A stretch of 64,000 nt of DNA from the human T2T-CHM13v2.0 reference genome, Homo sapiens. Made by a program: the position numbers and the translations under genes. The stretch's first letter is position 1, and each line of letters starts with the position of its first letter. Location of the stretch: assembly GCF_009914755.1 (NCBI RefSeq), contig NC_060939.1; one strand, given 5' to 3'. This document shows positions 1 through 60,077 of this stretch, piece after piece. The notes beneath the pieces were generated by a model. The model did not search any database and was not told the origin of the DNA. It was given only the letters and a program-made list of their open reading frames with translations.

Positions 1-432
1 GTCAAGTTCCAGAACACTCAAGAACCACTTTACTCAAAAGATTCACTAATGAAGAAGTAACTACAGATGTACTTTTTAAATTCTTCTCCTATGTATCTTA
101 CTTGCACCCATTTCATTAAAGAGTTTTTTAAGCTTAAAACACCTGGGATGTAATTCCTCTCTCCTTCAGTTCTTTGATCCAAACATAAGGCCTAATCACT
201 GCTTTTATTCACATTAACCCTGTCATCTTCCTCTATTTCCCTCTCCTTCTTTCTTCAGCAGACTCTGAAGAAAACTGACAAGTAGATGTTAATTCCAAGG
301 AAAAGCAAGCCAGGGAAGGGGAGAACCCACAGGAAAGAAAGGCCAAGTCAGAGAACAGAGCTGCTGCTTTGACTTGGCCTTTCCATCCCTGTGTATCCAG
401 CTGGTATCTGGGAGCCATGATAAAAGAATTAC

Positions 433-539
433 CTGTTTTGTTTGTCTCTGGAATTAACATCCGCTCCTCTATCTATCAGCAGTTGACATATTGTTGGCCT
501 ACTCATCTGAGTAGCCAGAACAAGTGGTGTCCGCCCGTC
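433..539 (-). CDS. UACA: UACA coding exon (DGRTPLVLATQMSRPTICQLLIDRGADVNSRDKQN, ankyrin repeat); gene continues beyond the window start
   Basis: 107 nt flanked by cttag acceptor and gtaatt donor; phase 0 in, phase 2 out; in frame with the previous exon across a 103-nt intron. Confidence 0.95.
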
Positions 540-642
540 CTAAGCAACAGGAAAAATAAAACAGCATTAAGACAACAGATCTCCCAAAATGTAGAAGTTA
601 GAATGCATGAGTTGAAATGAGAATAAACATAAACTAACTTAC

Positions 643-713
643 TACATCTTTGGCATTCACAGAGGCCCCATGGTCACAAAGCAGCTGTATGCTAGAAGGA
701 CAATCTGCCATTG
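643..713 (-). CDS. UACA: UACA coding exon ((A)MADCPSSIQLLCDHGASVNAKDV)
   Basis: 71 nt, taaag acceptor and gtaagt donor; phase matches both neighbours; ankyrin motif GAxVNAKD. Confidence 0.95.
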
Positions 714-1783
714 CTTTAAGGAACAAAAGAAAATGATAAATGGTGAACATCTGTTGGTAAGACACATAGTGTTTTTCTAGGTCCATATAAGGAATAAGTT
801 TTTCAATTTCTAAATTACCAAGCTTCACGTCCTTCACTCTTAGTTTAGCATTATAAGCACAATTTTTCATCTGAAAATGGATTAGACAAGATTATAAATT
901 GTCTACAATTTATTAGGACCAAGGAATAACGTCAACCTTGTAGAAGACAAGAACACACTACTATTCTAAGGATAAGCACAGACAATAAAAATCAAAGCTA
1001 AATTTTGTACTTACAGTATATTTTTAAACATGGCTATAACTGACTTGATCCTTGAAGTGTTGGCTCAGTTTTTTTAAAGAATCATATCCATTTTTTATAG
1101 AATAGTCACAGTAAGTAAAGTATGAATCATACAATTCATATTTCTCATAAAAGCAGAGATTGCAATGTCTACCTTTATGCAAAGTAAGGTCATTTTGCTA
1201 ATAATTATAAAATCACATTATGCTTCTTTGACTAACACTATAGTTCATATTTATATTAGGAAAAATTATTGTTAAATTCATAAAGTAGGATTATGTTTAC
1301 AATCCCCATGAATTTTTTAAGCCTTATGAGTTGACATACATTATAAGCACAAAAAGTACTGACAAAGTGAGCATTCTTTTTTTTATTGGTGAAATAATAG
1401 AATTAAACCAAACATAAGAAAATCAAGTAAATTTTCACTTTTCGTCTCTAATCCAGCAAATCTTTTATATAAAATGTATCATCAGCTTTAAGAAAAAGAT
1501 AAACTGAACCTGAAAACATTAATTCAGGAACTGTAAAATTAGCGACCCTTTACGTCCAATTATAAATGAGAATTTAAAAATGTAAAGCATAATAAATTCC
1601 AGAGTTTACAGATTACTAGATCATGAAGAACCGCTTAAAGCCAAAAAGAGAAAACTGCAAACCACCCAGAAATCCTAGACTTTGAGCTAGATGAAGTAAA
1701 TGAGTTTGTTTATATATCCTCTCCTTTGGGAGTATGTGGGAAGTAGGGGCTTTGGAGATATTTGGAAGGCCAGAGAGTTGAAC

Positions 1784-2235
1784 TGTAGCAGAAAATGCAG
1801 TATTTTACCAAAATTTGTTCTCCTCTTCTTCTACTATAGAGTAGGTTTCGGAATATGACTAGTCACCTAGAGAGTTTATTTCTGAGCCTCCCTTGCAGAT
1901 AAATATAGCCAATTGATTTTGCTCCTATCAGTAGAATATGAATGGAGAATAATCTACTACTTCCAAGTCTGAGTTCCAGACTTTGGGCATGTATTCCACT
2001 AGGCTCTCTCCTCCTTCCTGCTAGCTAGAATACGGCTACGACCACAACTCTGCTTCAACCTTGCAGTTAAGGAAGATACTCACAGGTAAGTGGAGAAACA
2101 AGATAGAAAGAATTCAGTTTTAAAATGACCATGAGTGACCTGTCAATATATATCACTCAACAATTTTTTTAATAAGCAGCTGATATTGGAGTTCTTTTGT
2201 TATAGCAACTTAGTTTCCATCCTAGCTAATGCATC
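1784..2235 (+). mobile_element. Old MaLR LTR (MLT1 family)
   Basis: TGTAGCAG start, 'cctcccttgcag..atatagcc' and 'ttgttatagcaac..ctaatgca' MLT1-like motifs; highly diverged. Confidence 0.55.
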
Positions 2236-3013
2236 TAACTAATAAGTATAAAGATTTCAATTGGTCAAGTTGTACCAGTTTTTAAAGCAGGGATAATAAA
2301 ATATATGGTTAACTTACAGGGGTCATTGTGAGGCTCAAATGATAATGGAAAAATGCTTTGCAAATACAGTAATACCCTTCTATATTAAAAAAAAGAAATG
2401 CATTGTGTGAGAAATTATCATACAAATAAAATACAAAAAGCAAAATTTTTAAAAATTAAGGTATAAAATTTTGAAGGAAATTTGAAGTATAATATGTCTT
2501 CAGTGCAGACCACCTTAATCTACTGCATATATTCCATATACATGAAAAGAGAAAGTAGACTGTTTTTTTTCCTTTGGCCTTATAGTTAAATGTAGGAATA
2601 TCAGACTTAGCAAGAGGTCAGGCTATCTTACATTCCAAAAATACCTAAATATATAACTTTTTTCAAAGTACTTTCTTTAAGACACCTAAAGAATAATGCA
2701 AATAAATTTAGACACACAAGTATAATAAAATCTCTAAAAATCAGTATAAATCTCTTTTAAAATATAGCACATTACAGTGATATGAAATTCAGCACTGACA
2801 TCTCTAAAGGAAAACAACTACCACCATTAATTAAGAAATTATTATGTGCCAGGCACTACTTATGATTTGATTATACTTATTAATACTACTTATTGCAGTA
2901 GTATTATTAACTTCATTTTGCAAATGAGAAAAAAGAGGTTCAGACATGTTAATTAGGTAAACATAGTTTAAGGAAAGTCTTCTTCCCATTTCTCCAATTC
3001 CCAAAGACATGAA

Positions 3014-3047
3014 ACACACACACGCACACACATTCTCTCTCTGTTTC

Positions 3048-3082
<35 letters not shown>
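3014..3082. repeat. (CA)n/(CT)n compound microsatellite
   Basis: Direct inspection. Confidence 0.9.
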
Positions 3083-3346
3083 GCTTGGAGCTCCTTGTGA
3101 GCAGGATTATAGTTTATCTACCTTTGTACCTTTAGTATCTAGCAAGCTGACTGGCCTGTAAATACTGACTGAATGAATCTTTTTAAGCGGTATAATCTAA
3201 TAAATCTCTAATTTGTGCAAACAGGTTTTTAATATTCTTTGTTTCTCCATGAATTATATAAATATCTATGTGTTAAAACCCTGAAATTAATTCAAATGAC
3301 TAGACATTTTAACAAATATTTGTATCCAAGGGAAACCACTGCTCAC

Positions 3347-3404
3347 CGGCATCGTGAAGTGCAGTTCTTCCCTGCAGGTCTGCATGCTCAGTGGGACAAT
3401 TGTA
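3347..3404 (-). CDS. UACA: UACA coding exon (YNCPTEHADLQGRTALHDA)
   Basis: 58 nt, aacag acceptor and gtgagc donor; ankyrin GRTALH motif. Confidence 0.95.
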
Positions 3405-4191
3405 CTGTTAAAGTAAAGAAAACTTAGTAAAGTAGGAGAGTTTTATTTTAAAATTAGATATCCAGACTCAGATGAACAGCTGTTATTTAATCTTAAAATA
3501 TTCCACTTATCAAAGAAGCTAAAGACTATCCGACAATCCATGAAATATGCTGACATGGAACAAATACAGTAACATTATATAACTAAATTAACAATATTTC
3601 ACCAAACAGGAAACATATGGTACATTATAATGAATGGCATGAAATACAGGAAAATATGTATTGTTTGGGGTTTTTTTTTCCACCAAGAATTAAAACTTGA
3701 GATACTGAATCAGAAAAGCAGGTGAGTTCTGCTATGAAACTTAGTGAATATGTTTATAAAAATGTATGACTGAAATATTTGATGGGAACTTTAGCCAACT
3801 AGTTAGAATTTTGTGGTTATCTGATTAAAAATGTAATAATATTATGTAGTATAAGTTATCTGTGTTTGAATAGAAATATACAGGTCCTATGTTGTATTAC
3901 TTTATCTTCCACGATAGTCTAGACAACAGAAAATTCCAACCTTCAGCTATGTCAACAGGAAGGTCAAGCCTTTGTTATTTATTTTTAATACACTGAGTTA
4001 TGCAATTCACTTCCCTCAGTTTTTGCTCTTTATTGTTCACATTCCTTCACAAATGATGGAAAAAATATGTAAGCTCATAGTCAAAGTTAGTTTACTATTC
4101 TCTTTGATCTAAAATTCCAAAAACACATTAAAAGTACATCTATGATTTGTTGTCAAAATAATAAAGCTAAAGTATTAACCACTTCCACTAC

Positions 4192-4256
4192 CTGTAGAAG
4201 TTTTTGTAGGCACAATGCATGTCCATACTTAGCAGCCAGGTGAAGAGCATTTCTCC
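4192..4256 (-). CDS. UACA: UACA coding exon ((G)RNALHLAAKYGHALCLQKLLQ)
   Basis: 65 nt, atag acceptor and gtagtg donor; ankyrin repeat core; lies inside track ORF 4153..4344. Confidence 0.95.
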
Positions 4257-5056
4257 CTATAAATAATTTAAGATACATGTGAAGGATTATTTTCTTCATA
4301 TGTAAATTGAGGATTTTTATAGAAATATGATTCTTTTTTCCCAAAACTAGTTGACAACATACTTAATCTGTAAGTATACTTTCAGTTTCCAAAGATGTTT
4401 CATCTAGCTTGATATTTTAGTAAGAGATGATATACGTACCAAAACAATGAAGGTAGAAAGAAAAACTAATTATAGAAATCTATAACAAGCAGGAACTTTG
4501 TTGTATTCACTACTATATCCCCAGCATGTAGAACAGTACCTAAAACACAGCAGATAATTAAATACTGGCACAGAGAAAAGGGAAAGGAGAGAAAGACAAT
4601 GAGGAAAGAAGAGAGAGAAAGAAATACCAAGATTTCACATTACATATCCAAATAGGCAGTGTGGACACTGAAAATTGAGAAAGTTAAGAAGCGTAAGGCA
4701 TAGAAAGGGTATTCCTTAACTGATTTTTCATGCTTTGGCTAAAATTCAAAGTTTATTATGTAATTCTATCTCTGAAAATCAGACAACTCATGCAAATATA
4801 ATTTGTATAAAATGTGCATTTTAAAGGAAATGCCAAAGGGGGTAGGGAGGAGAGGTTACCAGGTAATCTGAAAGGTTAATTCTGAATACCAGAAAAGAAA
4901 CTTGTAGGAACTATCTACCTCCAAACCCTATTTTTCCTAATTATATTTCTTTATACAAACACCTCTTGGATGGTGAAAGATATAAGGATTTAACCAGGCT
5001 ATTCCAACTTCTAACATTTAATGCTCTTAATTTCCCTCTAATCTCACAAACTTCTT

Positions 5057-5355
5057 TTCTTTTCAATTTATTCTTTTAGAGATAAGGTTTCACTCTGTCA
5101 CGCAGGCTAGTGTGCAGCCTCATAGCTCAGTACAGCCTCGAATGCCTGGGCTCAAGCGATCCTCACAGCTCAGCTTCCAGAGTAACAGGGACTATAGGCT
5201 CGTGCCACCATGTGCAGCTAATTTGTTTAATTTTGTGTAGAGACAGGGGCTCACTGTATTGCCCAAAGTGGTCTTGAACGCCTGGCCTCAAGCAATCCTG
5301 CTGCTTTGGTCTCCCAAAGTAATAGGATTACAAGCATGAGACATCACACCTGGCC
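5057..5355 (-). mobile_element. AluJ
   Basis: Antisense dimeric Alu; TSD ACAAACTTCTT on both sides. Confidence 0.9.
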
Positions 5356-5381
5356 ACAAACTTCTTAAAATATAATTTGGG

Positions 5382-5681
5382 GGCCGGACACTGTGGCTCA
5401 CATCTGTAATCCCAGCACTTTGAGAGGCCTAGGCAGGTGTATTGCTTGAGCCTGGGAGTTGAGACCAGCGTGGGCAACATAGTGAAATCCCATCTCTACA
5501 AAACATATAAAAATTAGTCAGGTGTGGTGGTGTATGCCTGTAGTCCCAGCGACTCAGAAGGCTGAGGGTAGAGGATCACTTAAGCACAGGAGGTCAAGGC
5601 TGCAGTAGCCATGATTATGCCACCACACTCTAGCCTAAGTGACTGAGCGAAATCCTGTCAGAAAAAAACAAAAACAAAAAC
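5382..5681 (+). mobile_element. AluJ
   Basis: GGCCGG start, diverged dimer, A-rich tail, flanking ATAATTTG repeat. Confidence 0.9.
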
Positions 5682-42417: not shown

Positions 42418-42431
42418 AAAGATGGGAACAA
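42418..42431 (+). repeat. 5' copy of the L1HS target-site duplication AAAGATGGGAACAA (3' copy at 48117-48130)
   Basis: Perfect 14-bp direct repeat; minus-strand nick site CTTT/AT fits the degenerate L1 EN motif TTTT/AA. Confidence 0.93.
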
Positions 42432-42570
42432 CCCTTCCGCCGCCTGTGAAGGGACCCACCGAGCTCCCAGGGCCTTTCTGCTGCTTCCTCTACCCCTGTA
42501 TTTTGCTCGGCTCTGTAACTTGACTCAGCTTCAGAGAGTGGTTAAAAATTCTCAACAAGAAAAAGCTGTG
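42432..42570 (+). other. 139-nt 5'-transduced (non-L1HS) leader
   Basis: Lies between the 5' TSD and L1 nt 1; belongs neither to the interrupted old L1 3' UTR nor to the L1HS consensus. Confidence 0.88.
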
Positions 42571-42951
42571 GAGGGAGGAGCCAAGATGGCCGAATAGGAA
42601 CAGCTCCGGTCTACAGCTCCCAGCGTGAGCGACGCAGAAGACGGTGATTTCTGCATTTCCATCTGAGCTTTGAAGAGAGCAGTGGTTCTCCCAGCACGCA
42701 GCTGGAGATCTGAGAACGGGCAGACTGCCTCCTCAAGTGGGTCCCTGACTCCTGACCCCCGAGCAGCCTAACTGGGAGGCACCCCCCAGCAGGGGCACAC
42801 TGACACCTCACACGGCAGGGTATTCCAACAGACCTGCAGCTGAGGGTCCTGTCTGTTAGAAGGAAAACTAACAACCAGAAAGGACATCTACACCGAAAAC
42901 CCATCTGTACATCACCATCATCAAAGACCAAAAGTAGATAAAACCACAAAG

Positions 42952-43968
42952 ATGGGGAAAAAACAGAACAGAAAAACTGGAAACTCTAAAACGCAGAGCG
43001 CCTCTCCTCCTCCAAAGGAACGCAGTTCCTCACCAGCAACAGAACAAAGCTGGATGGAGAATGATTTTGACGAGCTGAGAGAAGAAGGCTTCAGACGATC
43101 AAATTACTCTGAGCTACGGGAGGACATTCAAACCAAAGGCAAAGAAGTTGAAAACTTTGAAAAAAATTTAGAAGAATGTATAACTAGAATAACCAATACA
43201 GAGAAGTGCTTAAAGGAGCTGATGGAGCTGAAAACCAAGGCTCGAGAACTACGTGAAGAATGCAGAAGCCTCAGGAGCCGATGCGATCAACTGGAAGAAA
43301 GGGTATCAGCAATGGAAGATGAAATGAATGAAATGAAGCGAGAAGGGAAGTTTAGAGAAAAAAGAATAAAAAGAAATGAGCAAAGCCTCCAAGAAATATG
43401 GGACTATGTGAAAAGACCAAATCTACGTCTGATTGGTGTACCTGAAAGTGATGTGGAGAATGGAACCAAGTTGGAAAACACTCTGCAGGATATTATCCAG
43501 GAGAACTTCCCCAATCTAGCAAGGCAGGCCAACGTTCAGATTCAGGAAATACAGAGAACACCACAAAGATACTCCTCGAGAAGAGCAACTCCAAGACACA
43601 TAATTGTCAGATTCACCAAAGTTGAAATGAAGGAAAAAATGTTAAGGGCAGCCAGAGAGAAAGGTCGGGTTACCCTCAAAGGAAAGCCCATCAGACTAAC
43701 AGCGGATCTCTCGGCAGAAACCCTACAAGCCAGAAGAGAGTGGGGGCCAATATTCAACATTCTTAAAGAAAAGAATTTTCAACCCAGAATTTCATATCCA
43801 GCCAAACTAAGCTTCATAAGTGAAGGAGAAATAAAATACTTTATAGACAAGCAAATGTTGAGAGATTTTGTCACCACCAGGCCTGCCCTAAAAGAGCTCC
43901 TGAAGGAAGCGCTAAACATGGAAAGGAACAACCGGTACCAGCCACTGCAAAATCATGCCAAAATGTAA
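42952..43968 (+). CDS. L1 ORF1p (338 aa; coiled coil, RRM, CTD)
   Basis: Canonical MGKKQNRKTG start; REKG, ARR and YPAKLS motifs intact. Confidence 0.98.
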   Translation: MGKKQNRKTGNSKTQSASPPPKERSSSPATEQSWMENDFDELREEGFRRSNYSELREDIQTKGKEVENFEKNLEECITRITNTEKCLKELMELKTKARELREECRSLRSRCDQLEERVSAMEDEMNEMKREGKFREKRIKRNEQSLQEIWDYVKRPNLRLIGVPESDVENGTKLENTLQDIIQENFPNLARQANVQIQEIQRTPQRYSSRRATPRHIIVRFTKVEMKEKMLRAAREKGRVTLKGKPIRLTADLSAETLQARREWGPIFNILKEKNFQPRISYPAKLSFISEGEIKYFIDKQMLRDFVTTRPALKELLKEALNMERNNRYQPLQNHAKM

Positions 43969-44007
43969 AGACCATTGAGACTAGGAAGAAACTGCATCAA
44001 CTAATGA

Positions 44008-47859
<3,852 letters not shown>

Positions 47860-48085
47860 ACAATGAGATCACATGGACACAGGAAGGGGAATATCACACT
47901 CTGGGGACTGTGGTGGGGTCGGGGGAGGGGGGAGGGATAGCATTGGGAGATATACCTAATGCTAGATGACACATTAGTGGGTGCAGCGCACCAGCATGGC
48001 ACATGTATACATATGTAACTAACCTGCACAATGTGCACATGTACCCTAAAACTTAGAGTATAATAAAAAAAAAAAAAAAAATTCT

Positions 48086-48121
<36 letters not shown>

Positions 48122-48623
48122 TGGGAACAAAAGACACTAGAGGGCAGACAGAGGGATGGGGGGAAGGGCTGAAAAACTGCATACTGCGTACTATGCTCAA
48201 TACCTGGGTGACAAGATCAATCATACCACAAACCTCGGCAACACACAATACACCCAAGTAACAAACATGCATATGTACCCCTGAATCTAAAAGTTGAATT
48301 TTTTAATGCAGATTCATAAACAAACACCATTCTAAATCTAAATCCATCTCTAAAAGTGTTGTCTAGGAATATATCTGAGAAGCTAACATTCCTAAACCCC
48401 TTAAATATAGGAAACTATTTTAAGGAGTCTGAAGAATTGATGTTTATTCTCTCAATTAAAAAAAATATCACCACTAACCAAACTGGGATTATACTAATAG
48501 TCCTCCAGCTTGCTTCTTTTTACATATTTTGACATCTTGGCATGTCACATATATGTAAATATGGACAATTTGCACATTCCAAATAATAATTTACAATTTC
48601 CTACAACTAGAGAAAACAATGTA

Positions 48624-57872: not shown

Positions 57873-60077
<2,205 letters not shown>

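What the first reader, a model, noticed from the sequence alone, without database searches (positions are those of the whole stretch)
48065..48119. Parent element's TSD preserved at both ends: a possible three-generation genealogy
Seen: the tail is A17-TTCTC-A33, and AAAAATTCTCAA occurs both here (48077-48088) and in the 5' leader (42544-42555), where it follows TT, a canonical TT/AAAA EN site. Inference: this is the source L1's own TSD, captured on the 5' side by transduction and on the 3' side by short read-through before re-polyadenylation. The ~14 nt AAGAAAAAGCTGTG left between it and L1 nt 1 may be the flank or TSD of a grandparent element.
Basis: partly seen in the sequence, partly recalled or inferred. 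Interest (0 to 1): 0.7.

Follow-up and report, generated by a model that had tools for sequence, protein, structure and literature searches.

The report
Daughter L1 carrying its parent's target duplication
This human L1 jumping gene in a UACA intron carries, at both ends, small pieces of the chrX site where its parent once sat, which locates a parent copy missing from this genome; the element itself is already catalogued and the mechanism is a known one.

Summary
The tail reads A17-TTCTC-A33, and AAAAATTCTCAA occurs exactly twice in the window, at the stated places (0.16 expected by chance).

The main inference is strongly supported.
- The 136-nt leader comes from chrX in two spliced pieces. 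Piece 1 is 103 nt, 100% identical to chrX:33340515-33340617, where the genome continues GTAAAG.
- Piece 2 is 24 nt, exact at chrX:33435857-33435880, directly after CCCCTAG and 95 kb downstream on the same strand.
- The assembly (T2T-CHM13) has no L1 at that second place. The leader leaves chrX exactly 15 nt after a TT/AAAAA site.
- The parent was therefore an L1 allele with the target-site duplication (TSD) AAAAATTCTCAACAA, absent from this assembly and apparently from hg38. The TTCTC in the tail is the start of its 3' copy, included because cleavage about 20 nt after AATAAA fell beyond a short A-tract.

The grandparent idea has no support. The 11-12 orphan bases (GAAAAAGCTGT/G) sit next to no other L1 5' end in this genome and may be filler.

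The MPRIYN variant is not private: 36 copies carry it.

The element is already published as SpIRE(97/622)-104 (2018, with wrong TSD and 'no transduction') and as a chrX lncRNA/L1 chimera (2026). Reading the tail as the parent's TSD appears to be new, but it is a small addition.

The parts
42418..42431 (+). 5' copy of this insertion's own target-site duplication (TSD), AAAGATGGGAACAA
   Evidence: The identical 14-mer lies at 48117-48130. In two paralogous old-L1 copies (L026, L027) the two flanks are contiguous with a 13-nt overlap. Table S5 of PMC13174262 gives the same TSD.
42432..42534 (+). Leader piece 1: 103 nt of exon 1 of the chrX lncRNA ENSG00000233928 (RP11-305F18.1)
   Evidence: 100% identical to G000:C23:33340515-33340617 (+). 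There the genome continues GTAAAG, a splice donor. Gene assignment is from Table S5 and the gene name from PMC7909759.
42535..42558 (+). Leader piece 2: 24 nt of the source L1's immediate 5' flank on chrX, starting at a splice acceptor
   Evidence: Exact at G000:C23:33435857-33435880 (+), preceded by ...CCCCTAG. After ...CAACAA the genome continues ATGTGTC, whereas the window continues GAAAAAG.
42544..42558 (+). 5' copy of the source L1's TSD, AAAAATTCTCAACAA (15 nt at most), after TT
   Evidence: It begins at a TT/AAAAA site and ends exactly where the leader leaves the chrX sequence. Its first 12 nt recur in the tail.
42559..42570 (+). Orphan bases GAAAAAGCTGT(G), 11-12 nt, origin unresolved
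   Evidence: Absent from the chrX empty site. No other L1 5' end in the genome is preceded by them. The 8-nt mapping in Table S5 (CHM13 chrX:33445680) is at chance level.
42571..48064 (+). L1HS body with intact ORF1 (42952-43968, 338 aa) and ORF2 (44032-47859, 1275 aa); the 5'UTR lacks 524 nt at the 42667/42668 junction (SpIRE97/622)
   Evidence: ORFs. The 524-nt gap relative to two full-length L1HS copies is bounded by GT...AG. In 24 other copies the matches to query nt 1-97 and 96-5494 lie about 523 nt apart. Listed as SpIRE(97/622)-104.
48062..48067 (+). The L1's own AATAAA polyadenylation signal
   Evidence: Read. TTCTCA ends 20 nt downstream of the hexamer.
48065..48119 (+). Tail A17-TTCTC-A33. 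Read as the source's genomic A-tract plus the first part of its 3' TSD (AAAAATTCTCA/A), then the poly(A) added to the RNA
   Evidence: Run lengths. The 12-mer shared with the leader. The tail pattern is unique in the genome.
48117..48130 (+). 3' copy of this insertion's own TSD, AAAGATGGGAACAA
   Evidence: Table S5.

Best explanation
This is a two-ended transduction that records the parent's insertion site.

(1) Inferred: an L1HS inserted in + orientation at chrX about 33,435,880 (CHM13; hg38 chrX:33,837,771). The endonuclease site was TT/AAAAA, the target-site duplication (TSD) was the 15-bp AAAAATTCTCAACAA, and 11-12 extra bases lay at its 5' junction. That allele is absent from CHM13 and, judging by published coordinates, from hg38.

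(2) Shown by sequence: the RNA that made the chr15 copy did not start at the L1 promoter. It started 95 kb upstream in exon 1 of lncRNA ENSG00000233928, which lies antisense inside the 5'UTR of an old L1. It was spliced from CAG|GTAAAG to an acceptor (CCCCTAG|) 24 nt upstream of the parent L1. L1 5'UTR nt 98-621 are also missing at GT...AG borders. Whether that splice happened in this RNA or was already in the parent DNA is unknown.

(3) Inferred from standard polyadenylation rules: the L1's AATAAA directed cleavage about 20 nt downstream. The parent's genomic A-tract was short: 14 A's follow the hexamer and 5 of them belong to the TSD. Cleavage therefore fell inside the 3' TSD after TTCTCA, with a TGTGT element just beyond it in the chrX flank. 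A new poly(A) tail was then added.

(4) Shown: this RNA was inserted by target-primed reverse transcription into an old L1 in a UACA intron, with the 14-bp TSD AAAGATGGGAACAA.

The orphan 11-12 bases came in with the parent's own insertion. Whether they are filler or a scrap of a grandparent's flank is open.
For: - Leader nt 1-103 are 100% identical to chrX:33340515-33340617. The other 38 scored matches are repeat-family copies at 86-95% identity. The chrX sequence continues GTAAAG.
- The 22-mer AGAGTGGTTAAAAATTCTCAAC is exact at only two places in 3.1 Gb: the window and chrX:33435857, same strand, 95,239 nt downstream of the donor. Three other hits carry 2 mismatches; the reversed-pattern control gave 2+2 hits.
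- That place reads CCCCTAG|AGAGTGGTTAAAAATTCTCAACAA|ATGTGTC with no L1.
- The 12-mer shared by tail and leader occurs 2 times against 0.16 expected. The tail pattern is unique genome-wide.
- hg38 is empty too. Table S5 places the 24-nt piece and a later 8-mer 9,799 nt apart in hg38, and they are 9,800 nt apart in CHM13.
- The chr15 target is continuous old-L1 sequence with one copy of the TSD in 2 of 3 paralogs examined; the third aligns only partly and is consistent.
- The 524-nt 5'UTR gap has GT...AG borders.
Against: - The parent allele itself was not seen. Only one genome could be searched, and it has an empty site.
- The 3' evidence is only 5-7 non-homopolymer bases.
- The orphan 11-12 nt between the parent's TSD and the L1 are unexplained.
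- No sibling was found in this genome: none with the same 5' flank, tail or a longer 3' transduction of the chrX flank.
- The A-tract lengths may have changed since insertion, so the figure of about 9 A's in the parent and the 20-nt spacing are approximate.
Confidence: 0.85

Rival explanations
1. The orphan bases (GAAAAAGCTGT/G, or 14 nt) are a scrap of the grandparent's 5' flank or TSD, carried in because the grandparent's transcript began a few bases upstream of L1 nt 1.
For: The orphans are absent from the chrX empty site, so they arrived with the parent's insertion. They lie directly against the L1 5' end. That L1 transcripts can start upstream of nt 1 is my recollection of the literature, not a call.
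Against: No other L1 5' end in this genome is preceded by them. The 27-mer with up to 2 mismatches gave 1 match, the window itself. AAGCTGTG within 0-6 nt of the L1 start gave 1 match, the window itself. No copy in this genome shares both marker sets tested. Extra 5' bases of 10, 12, 20 and 23 nt are listed as 'untemplated' among the first 29 such rows shown of Larson's SpIRE97/622 table, so filler of this length is not unusual.
Confidence: 0.3
2. No L1 ever sat on chrX. The chimera arose from two separate RNAs (trans-splicing, RNA ligation, or a reverse-transcriptase template switch from the L1 RNA's 5' end onto the lncRNA), and TTCTC in the tail is a coincidence or comes from another source locus.
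For: PMC13174262 (section 13, read whole) keeps trans-splicing and RNA recombination open for several exon/L1 chimeras for which no intronic source L1 is found. No source L1 is present here in CHM13 either.
Against: The join to the L1 is not at a splice site: the chrX sequence after ...CAACAA is ATGTGT. The leader leaves chrX exactly 15 nt after a TT/AAAAA site, and the tail repeats the first 12 nt of those 15. By my arithmetic the chance of that is about 1e-3 to 2e-4.
Confidence: 0.07
3. The 2018 annotation: a plain SpIRE insertion with a 6-bp TSD, 5 untemplated bases and no transduction, the 136 nt upstream being ordinary chr15 flank.
For: S1 Table and S1 Data of PMC5860796 list it so.
Against: The supposed chr15 flank is 100% chrX sequence joined at GT/AG borders. 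Paralogs of the old L1 target show the true flanks abutting with a 13-nt overlap. The 2026 table gives the 14-bp TSD.
Confidence: 0.01

Closest known systems
Spliced exon/L1 5' transduction from a co-opted upstream promoter (RAP1GDS1-L1PA2 case and the 17 hg38 chimeras of PMC13174262)
   Same: Upstream exon(s) end at a canonical donor and join an acceptor a few bases upstream of an intronic L1 (15 bp there, 24 nt here). The L1 lacks 5'UTR nt about 98-621. The whole RNA is retrotransposed with a TSD and poly(A). This very element is row 16 of their Table S5.
   Different: Here the L1 is L1HS, not L1PA2, and the source allele is missing from both references. Its place and TSD are recoverable only because the tail also carries the TSD. 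The rows and passages I saw do not mention the tail, and 'source' and 'polymorphic' occur 0 times in Table S5. Their third mapped piece (8 nt) is at chance level.
SpIRE97/622 (Larson et al. 2018, PMC5860796)
   Same: The 5'UTR is deleted between the donor at nt 97/98 and the acceptor at nt 621/622. The element is listed there as SpIRE(97/622)-104, L1Hs, UACA, opposite orientation.
   Different: The listed TSD (6 bp), endonuclease site (TTTT/C), '5 untemplated' and 'Transduction: No' are contradicted here. SpIREs are described there as generally dead ends. This lineage moved at least once from an outside promoter.
Short L1 3' transductions with two poly(A) tracts (e.g. PMC13009371)
   Same: The structure is L1 end, source A-tract, a little unique flank, then a second poly(A). 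That paper reports 71% (248/349) of transductions under 100 bp (passages read).
   Different: Here the transduced stretch is only 5-7 nt and lies wholly inside the source's TSD. The L1's own AATAAA is used rather than a downstream signal.

Membership tests
L1 insertion by target-primed reverse transcription | Target-site duplication flanking the whole insert | tested here: met
   The 14-nt AAAGATGGGAACAA lies at 42418-42431 and 48117-48130. Paralogs show a single copy.
L1 insertion by target-primed reverse transcription | Terminal poly(A) and an endonuclease-like target site | tested here: met
   A33 lies directly before the 3' TSD. The site AT/AAAG is a loose match to TT/AAAA.
SpIRE97/622 | Loss of 5'UTR nt 98-621 with GT...AG at the borders in full-length copies | tested here: met
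   A 524-nt gap against two full-length L1HS copies, bordered by ...CTGAG|GTACC and ...GACAG|CTTTG. Split matches about 523 nt apart in 24 copies.
Cis-spliced 5' transduction from an upstream promoter | Leader pieces map to one locus, same strand, in order, with a GT donor and an AG acceptor at the joins | tested here: met
   chrX:33340515-33340617 then chrX:33435857-33435880, both +. GTAAAG follows piece 1 and CCCCTAG precedes piece 2.
Cis-spliced 5' transduction from an upstream promoter | A source L1 present just downstream of the acceptor | tested here: not met
   The CHM13 site is empty, and hg38 is empty by coordinate arithmetic. A polymorphic or lost allele is inferred, not seen.
3' transduction | Sequence between two A-tracts maps immediately 3' of the source L1 | tested here: inconclusive
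   TTCTC(AA) equals the bases after the A-run of the inferred source TSD. It is only 5-7 nt long, and the source's filled site was not seen.
Grandparent 5' flank (three-generation lineage) | The orphan bases found next to another L1 5' end | tested here: not met
   1 match (the window itself) in each of two genome-wide pattern searches. Only one genome was searched.
L1 antisense-promoter transcript | Transcript start antisense within an L1 5'UTR, running out of the element | tested here: inconclusive
   ORF1 homology lies on the opposite strand upstream of exon 1 (L002 571->62). The repeat ends about 290 nt beyond the donor in 5 of 8 copies. There is no homology to the L1HS 5'UTR, and promoter activity was not tested.

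The most novel reading that the evidence does not exclude
The missing chrX parent was itself a promoter-poor SpIRE that could move only because an old L1's antisense transcript spliced into it, and its 11-12 orphan bases are a read-in from a grandparent. That would be a lineage of the currently active L1HS family surviving at least two successive jumps on borrowed promoters. The chr15 copy, with both ORFs intact, would be its latest member.
Probability: 0.15. Interest if true: 0.5.

Novelty: new member of a known kind. Interest (0 to 1): 0.3.

Why it matters
For exon/L1 chimeras the open question in print is whether they arise in cis, from an L1 sitting in the intron, or from two separate RNAs. 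Usually no source L1 can be found. Here the daughter carries the parent's target duplication on both sides, which places the parent physically at one base position on chrX even though both reference genomes lack it.

This gives a precise and cheap prediction for long-read panels: an L1HS at hg38 chrX:33,837,771 with the TSD AAAAATTCTCAACAA.

It also corrects a published annotation of this element. More generally, odd bases inside L1 tails can serve as source barcodes even when they are too short for ordinary transduction mapping.

The gain is incremental, because the mechanisms are all established.

Tried and rejected
- Grandparent search. Orphan bases plus L1 start as a 27-mer, up to 2 mismatches: only the window (the first try with 3 mismatches failed with a machine error). 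AAGCTGTG within 0-6 nt of the L1 start: only the window.
- Whole 34-mer flank including the orphans, up to 2 mismatches: only the window.
- Siblings. The tail pattern matched only the window. The 296 nt of chrX 3' flank are unique, so there is no longer 3' transduction.
- Local origin of the orphans. No match of 13 nt or more in the window, the L1 body or 26 kb of chrX. The best was a 12-mer on the opposite strand at window 40025, about chance.
- Table S5's third piece. The 8-mer AAAGCTGT at CHM13 chrX:33445680 is one of many 8-mer hits in 20 kb and leaves GAA unplaced, so I rejected it as chance.
- Marker variants. 7 sites differ from both comparison copies. The pair at 43944/43976 is exact in 34 copies (354 within 1 mismatch). 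The MPRIYN allele at 46760 is in 36 copies. By my comparison of the two lists, no copy but the window appears in both. These are shared old or CpG alleles, not lineage markers.
- Nearest L1HS copies by bit score differ at roughly 10 or more sites. Only 25 of 9,300 candidates were scored, so a closer copy could have been missed.
- Old L1 5'UTR against the L1HS 5' end: no homology. The old L1's family was not named.
- The hg38 tail could not be read because Larson's S1 Data is stored cut.
- Earlier findings of the scan were not open.

Full report
**What is in the sequence**

After the L1 3' end ...TATAAT the window reads A17, TTCTC, A33 and then G (48065-48119). AAAAATTCTCAA occurs exactly twice in 64 kb on both strands, at 42544-42555 and 48077-48088. 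Shuffles expect 0.16. In the leader it follows TT.

**This insertion's own borders**

AAAGATGGGAACAA lies at 42418-42431 and again at 48117-48130. Both flanks belong to one old L1.
- The upstream flank aligns to the ORF2 C-terminus.
- Three paralogous copies of that old L1 were fetched. In L026 and L027 the two flanks abut with a 13-nt overlap. L028 aligns only partly and is consistent.

The 136-138 nt between 42432 and the L1 start are therefore part of the insert, not chr15 flank. The L1 lies antisense to UACA in an intron, according to the hub's gene table.

**Where the leader comes from**

- Leader nt 1-103 are 100% identical to chrX:33340515-33340617 (+). The other 38 scored matches (of 738 candidates) are 86-95% identical repeat copies. 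At that chrX place the genome continues GTAAAG.
- The next 22 nt are exact at only one other place in 3.1 Gb: chrX:33435857, same strand, 95,239 nt downstream. Three further hits carry 2 mismatches, and the reversed control gave 2+2 hits.
- That place reads ...CCCCTAG|AGAGTGGTTAAAAATTCTCAACAA|ATGTGTCAAT....

The leader is thus a spliced RNA: exon 1 joined to an acceptor 95 kb away. It follows the chrX sequence for 24 nt and then leaves it at a point that is not a splice site.

**The parent's site**

The last 15 of those 24 nt begin at TT/AAAAA, the canonical L1 endonuclease site, and end exactly where the leader leaves chrX. The L1 tail repeats the first 12 of them. The simplest reading has four parts.
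- An L1 once sat at this chrX position with the target-site duplication (TSD) AAAAATTCTCAACAA.
- The 5' copy of that TSD entered the RNA because transcription came from upstream.
- The 3' copy entered in part because cleavage fell inside it. TTCTCA ends 20 nt after the AATAAA hexamer (48062-48067). This is the usual spacing, at a CA, with TGTGT a few bases further on in the chrX flank. These rules of polyadenylation are general knowledge, not a call.
- Of the 14 A's after the hexamer, 5 belong to the TSD, so the parent's A-tract was about 9, if lengths have not drifted.

CHM13 has no L1 at the site. hg38 seems empty too: Table S5 of PMC13174262 places the 24-nt piece and a later 8-mer 9,799 nt apart, and they are 9,800 nt apart in CHM13. 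The parent is therefore a polymorphic or lost allele. This is inferred; the allele was not seen.

**The L1 itself**

- ORF1 (338 aa) and ORF2 (1275 aa) are open.
- Against two full-length L1HS copies the 5'UTR lacks 524 nt, bordered by GT...AG. In 24 other copies the two halves lie about 523 nt apart. This is the SpIRE97/622 class, a spliced, retrotransposed L1.
- The body differs from the two copies at 12 and 13 sites.
- The ACA in the 3'UTR, which I recall as the Ta-subfamily marker, is present.

**Exon 1**

Exon 1 lies on the strand opposite to an old L1. ORF1 homology runs the other way upstream of it. The repeat ends about 290 nt past the donor in 5 of 8 copies. The transcript therefore starts antisense inside an old L1's 5'UTR. 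That 5'UTR has no similarity to the L1HS one, and promoter activity is only inferred.

**The third generation**

The 11-12 bases GAAAAAGCTGT(G) at 42559-42569/70 are absent from the chrX empty site, so they came with the parent's insertion.
- I found no other L1 5' end preceded by them and no source for them nearby.
- Table S5 maps 8 of them 9.8 kb downstream on chrX. That 8-mer is one of many chance hits in 20 kb and leaves three bases unplaced.
- In Larson's table, extra 5' bases of 10, 12, 20 and 23 nt occur among the first 29 such rows shown.

Filler and grandparent flank are both possible, and nothing favours the grandparent.

**Markers and siblings**

- The MPRIYN allele (46760 G) is carried by 36 copies in this genome.
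- The pair at 43944/43976 is carried by 34 copies.
- By my comparison of the two lists, only the window has both.
- No sibling was found by 5' flank, by tail or by a longer 3' flank.

**What is already in print**

- Larson et al. 2018 (PMC5860796; passages and supplement rows seen) list the element as SpIRE(97/622)-104 with a 6-bp TSD, 5 untemplated bases and no transduction. contradict this.
- The 2026 Cell Genomics paper (PMC13174262; sections 13-14 read whole, Table S5 row seen) has the correct 14-bp TSD and the chrX lncRNA origin. It also describes the same mechanism for an L1PA2 SpIRE in RAP1GDS1.
- In Table S5 the words 'source' and 'polymorphic' occur 0 times.
- Short two-tailed 3' transductions are described in PMC13009371 (passages). 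Source elements missing from references are discussed in the 1000 Genomes ONT preprint (passages; supplements closed).
- My searches found no statement that this element's tail carries its parent's TSD. Those searches cover main texts only.

**Verdict**

The grandparent and 'private SNP' parts are unsupported. The kind of event is known, and this element is already catalogued.

Noticed in passing
window 42432-42570; PMC5860796 S1 Table, row SpIRE(97/622)-104: The 2018 catalogue gives this element a 6-bp TSD, TTTT/C site, 5 untemplated bases and 'Transduction: No'. It took the chrX-derived leader for chr15 flank.
   Followed up: yes
PMC5860796 S1 Table, SpIRE(97/622) rows: Several other SpIREs in that table carry long 'untemplated' 5' stretches (10, 12, 20, 23 and 131 nt among the first 29 rows shown). 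Some may be unrecognised short or spliced 5' transductions like this one.
   Followed up: no
L002 (chrX:33339015-33342117), exon 1 at 1501-1603: Exon 1 of lncRNA ENSG00000233928 lies antisense within the 5'UTR of an old L1, about 290-390 nt from that element's 5' end. The old L1's family was not identified, and its 5'UTR has no similarity to L1HS.
   Followed up: partly
window 42570-48130 versus hg38 coordinates in Table S5 of PMC13174262: From L1 start to the 3' TSD is 5,547 nt in CHM13, but the published hg38 coordinates imply about 5,517 nt. The tail probably differs by about 30 nt between the two assemblies. The hg38 tail could not be read.
   Followed up: partly
window 46760; 43944 and 43976: Sites that look private against two L1HS copies are shared by 36 and 34 copies genome-wide. 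Two of the three are CpG-type changes, so they are poor lineage markers.
   Followed up: yes
L018 9680-9687 (chrX:33445680): The third, 8-nt mapped piece in Table S5 (AAAGCTGT, preceded by AG) is no better than many other 8-mer hits in the same 20 kb.
   Followed up: yes
window 58508-59930: Another L1 fragment in + orientation shares the ORF2 3' region with the old L1 that hosts the insertion (about 73% identity over 202 nt).
   Followed up: no
PMC12896411: A 2026 lung-cancer cell-line study names UACA among genes near L1HS loci expressed in at least 80% of lines. This may be the same element, but no coordinates were seen.
   Followed up: no
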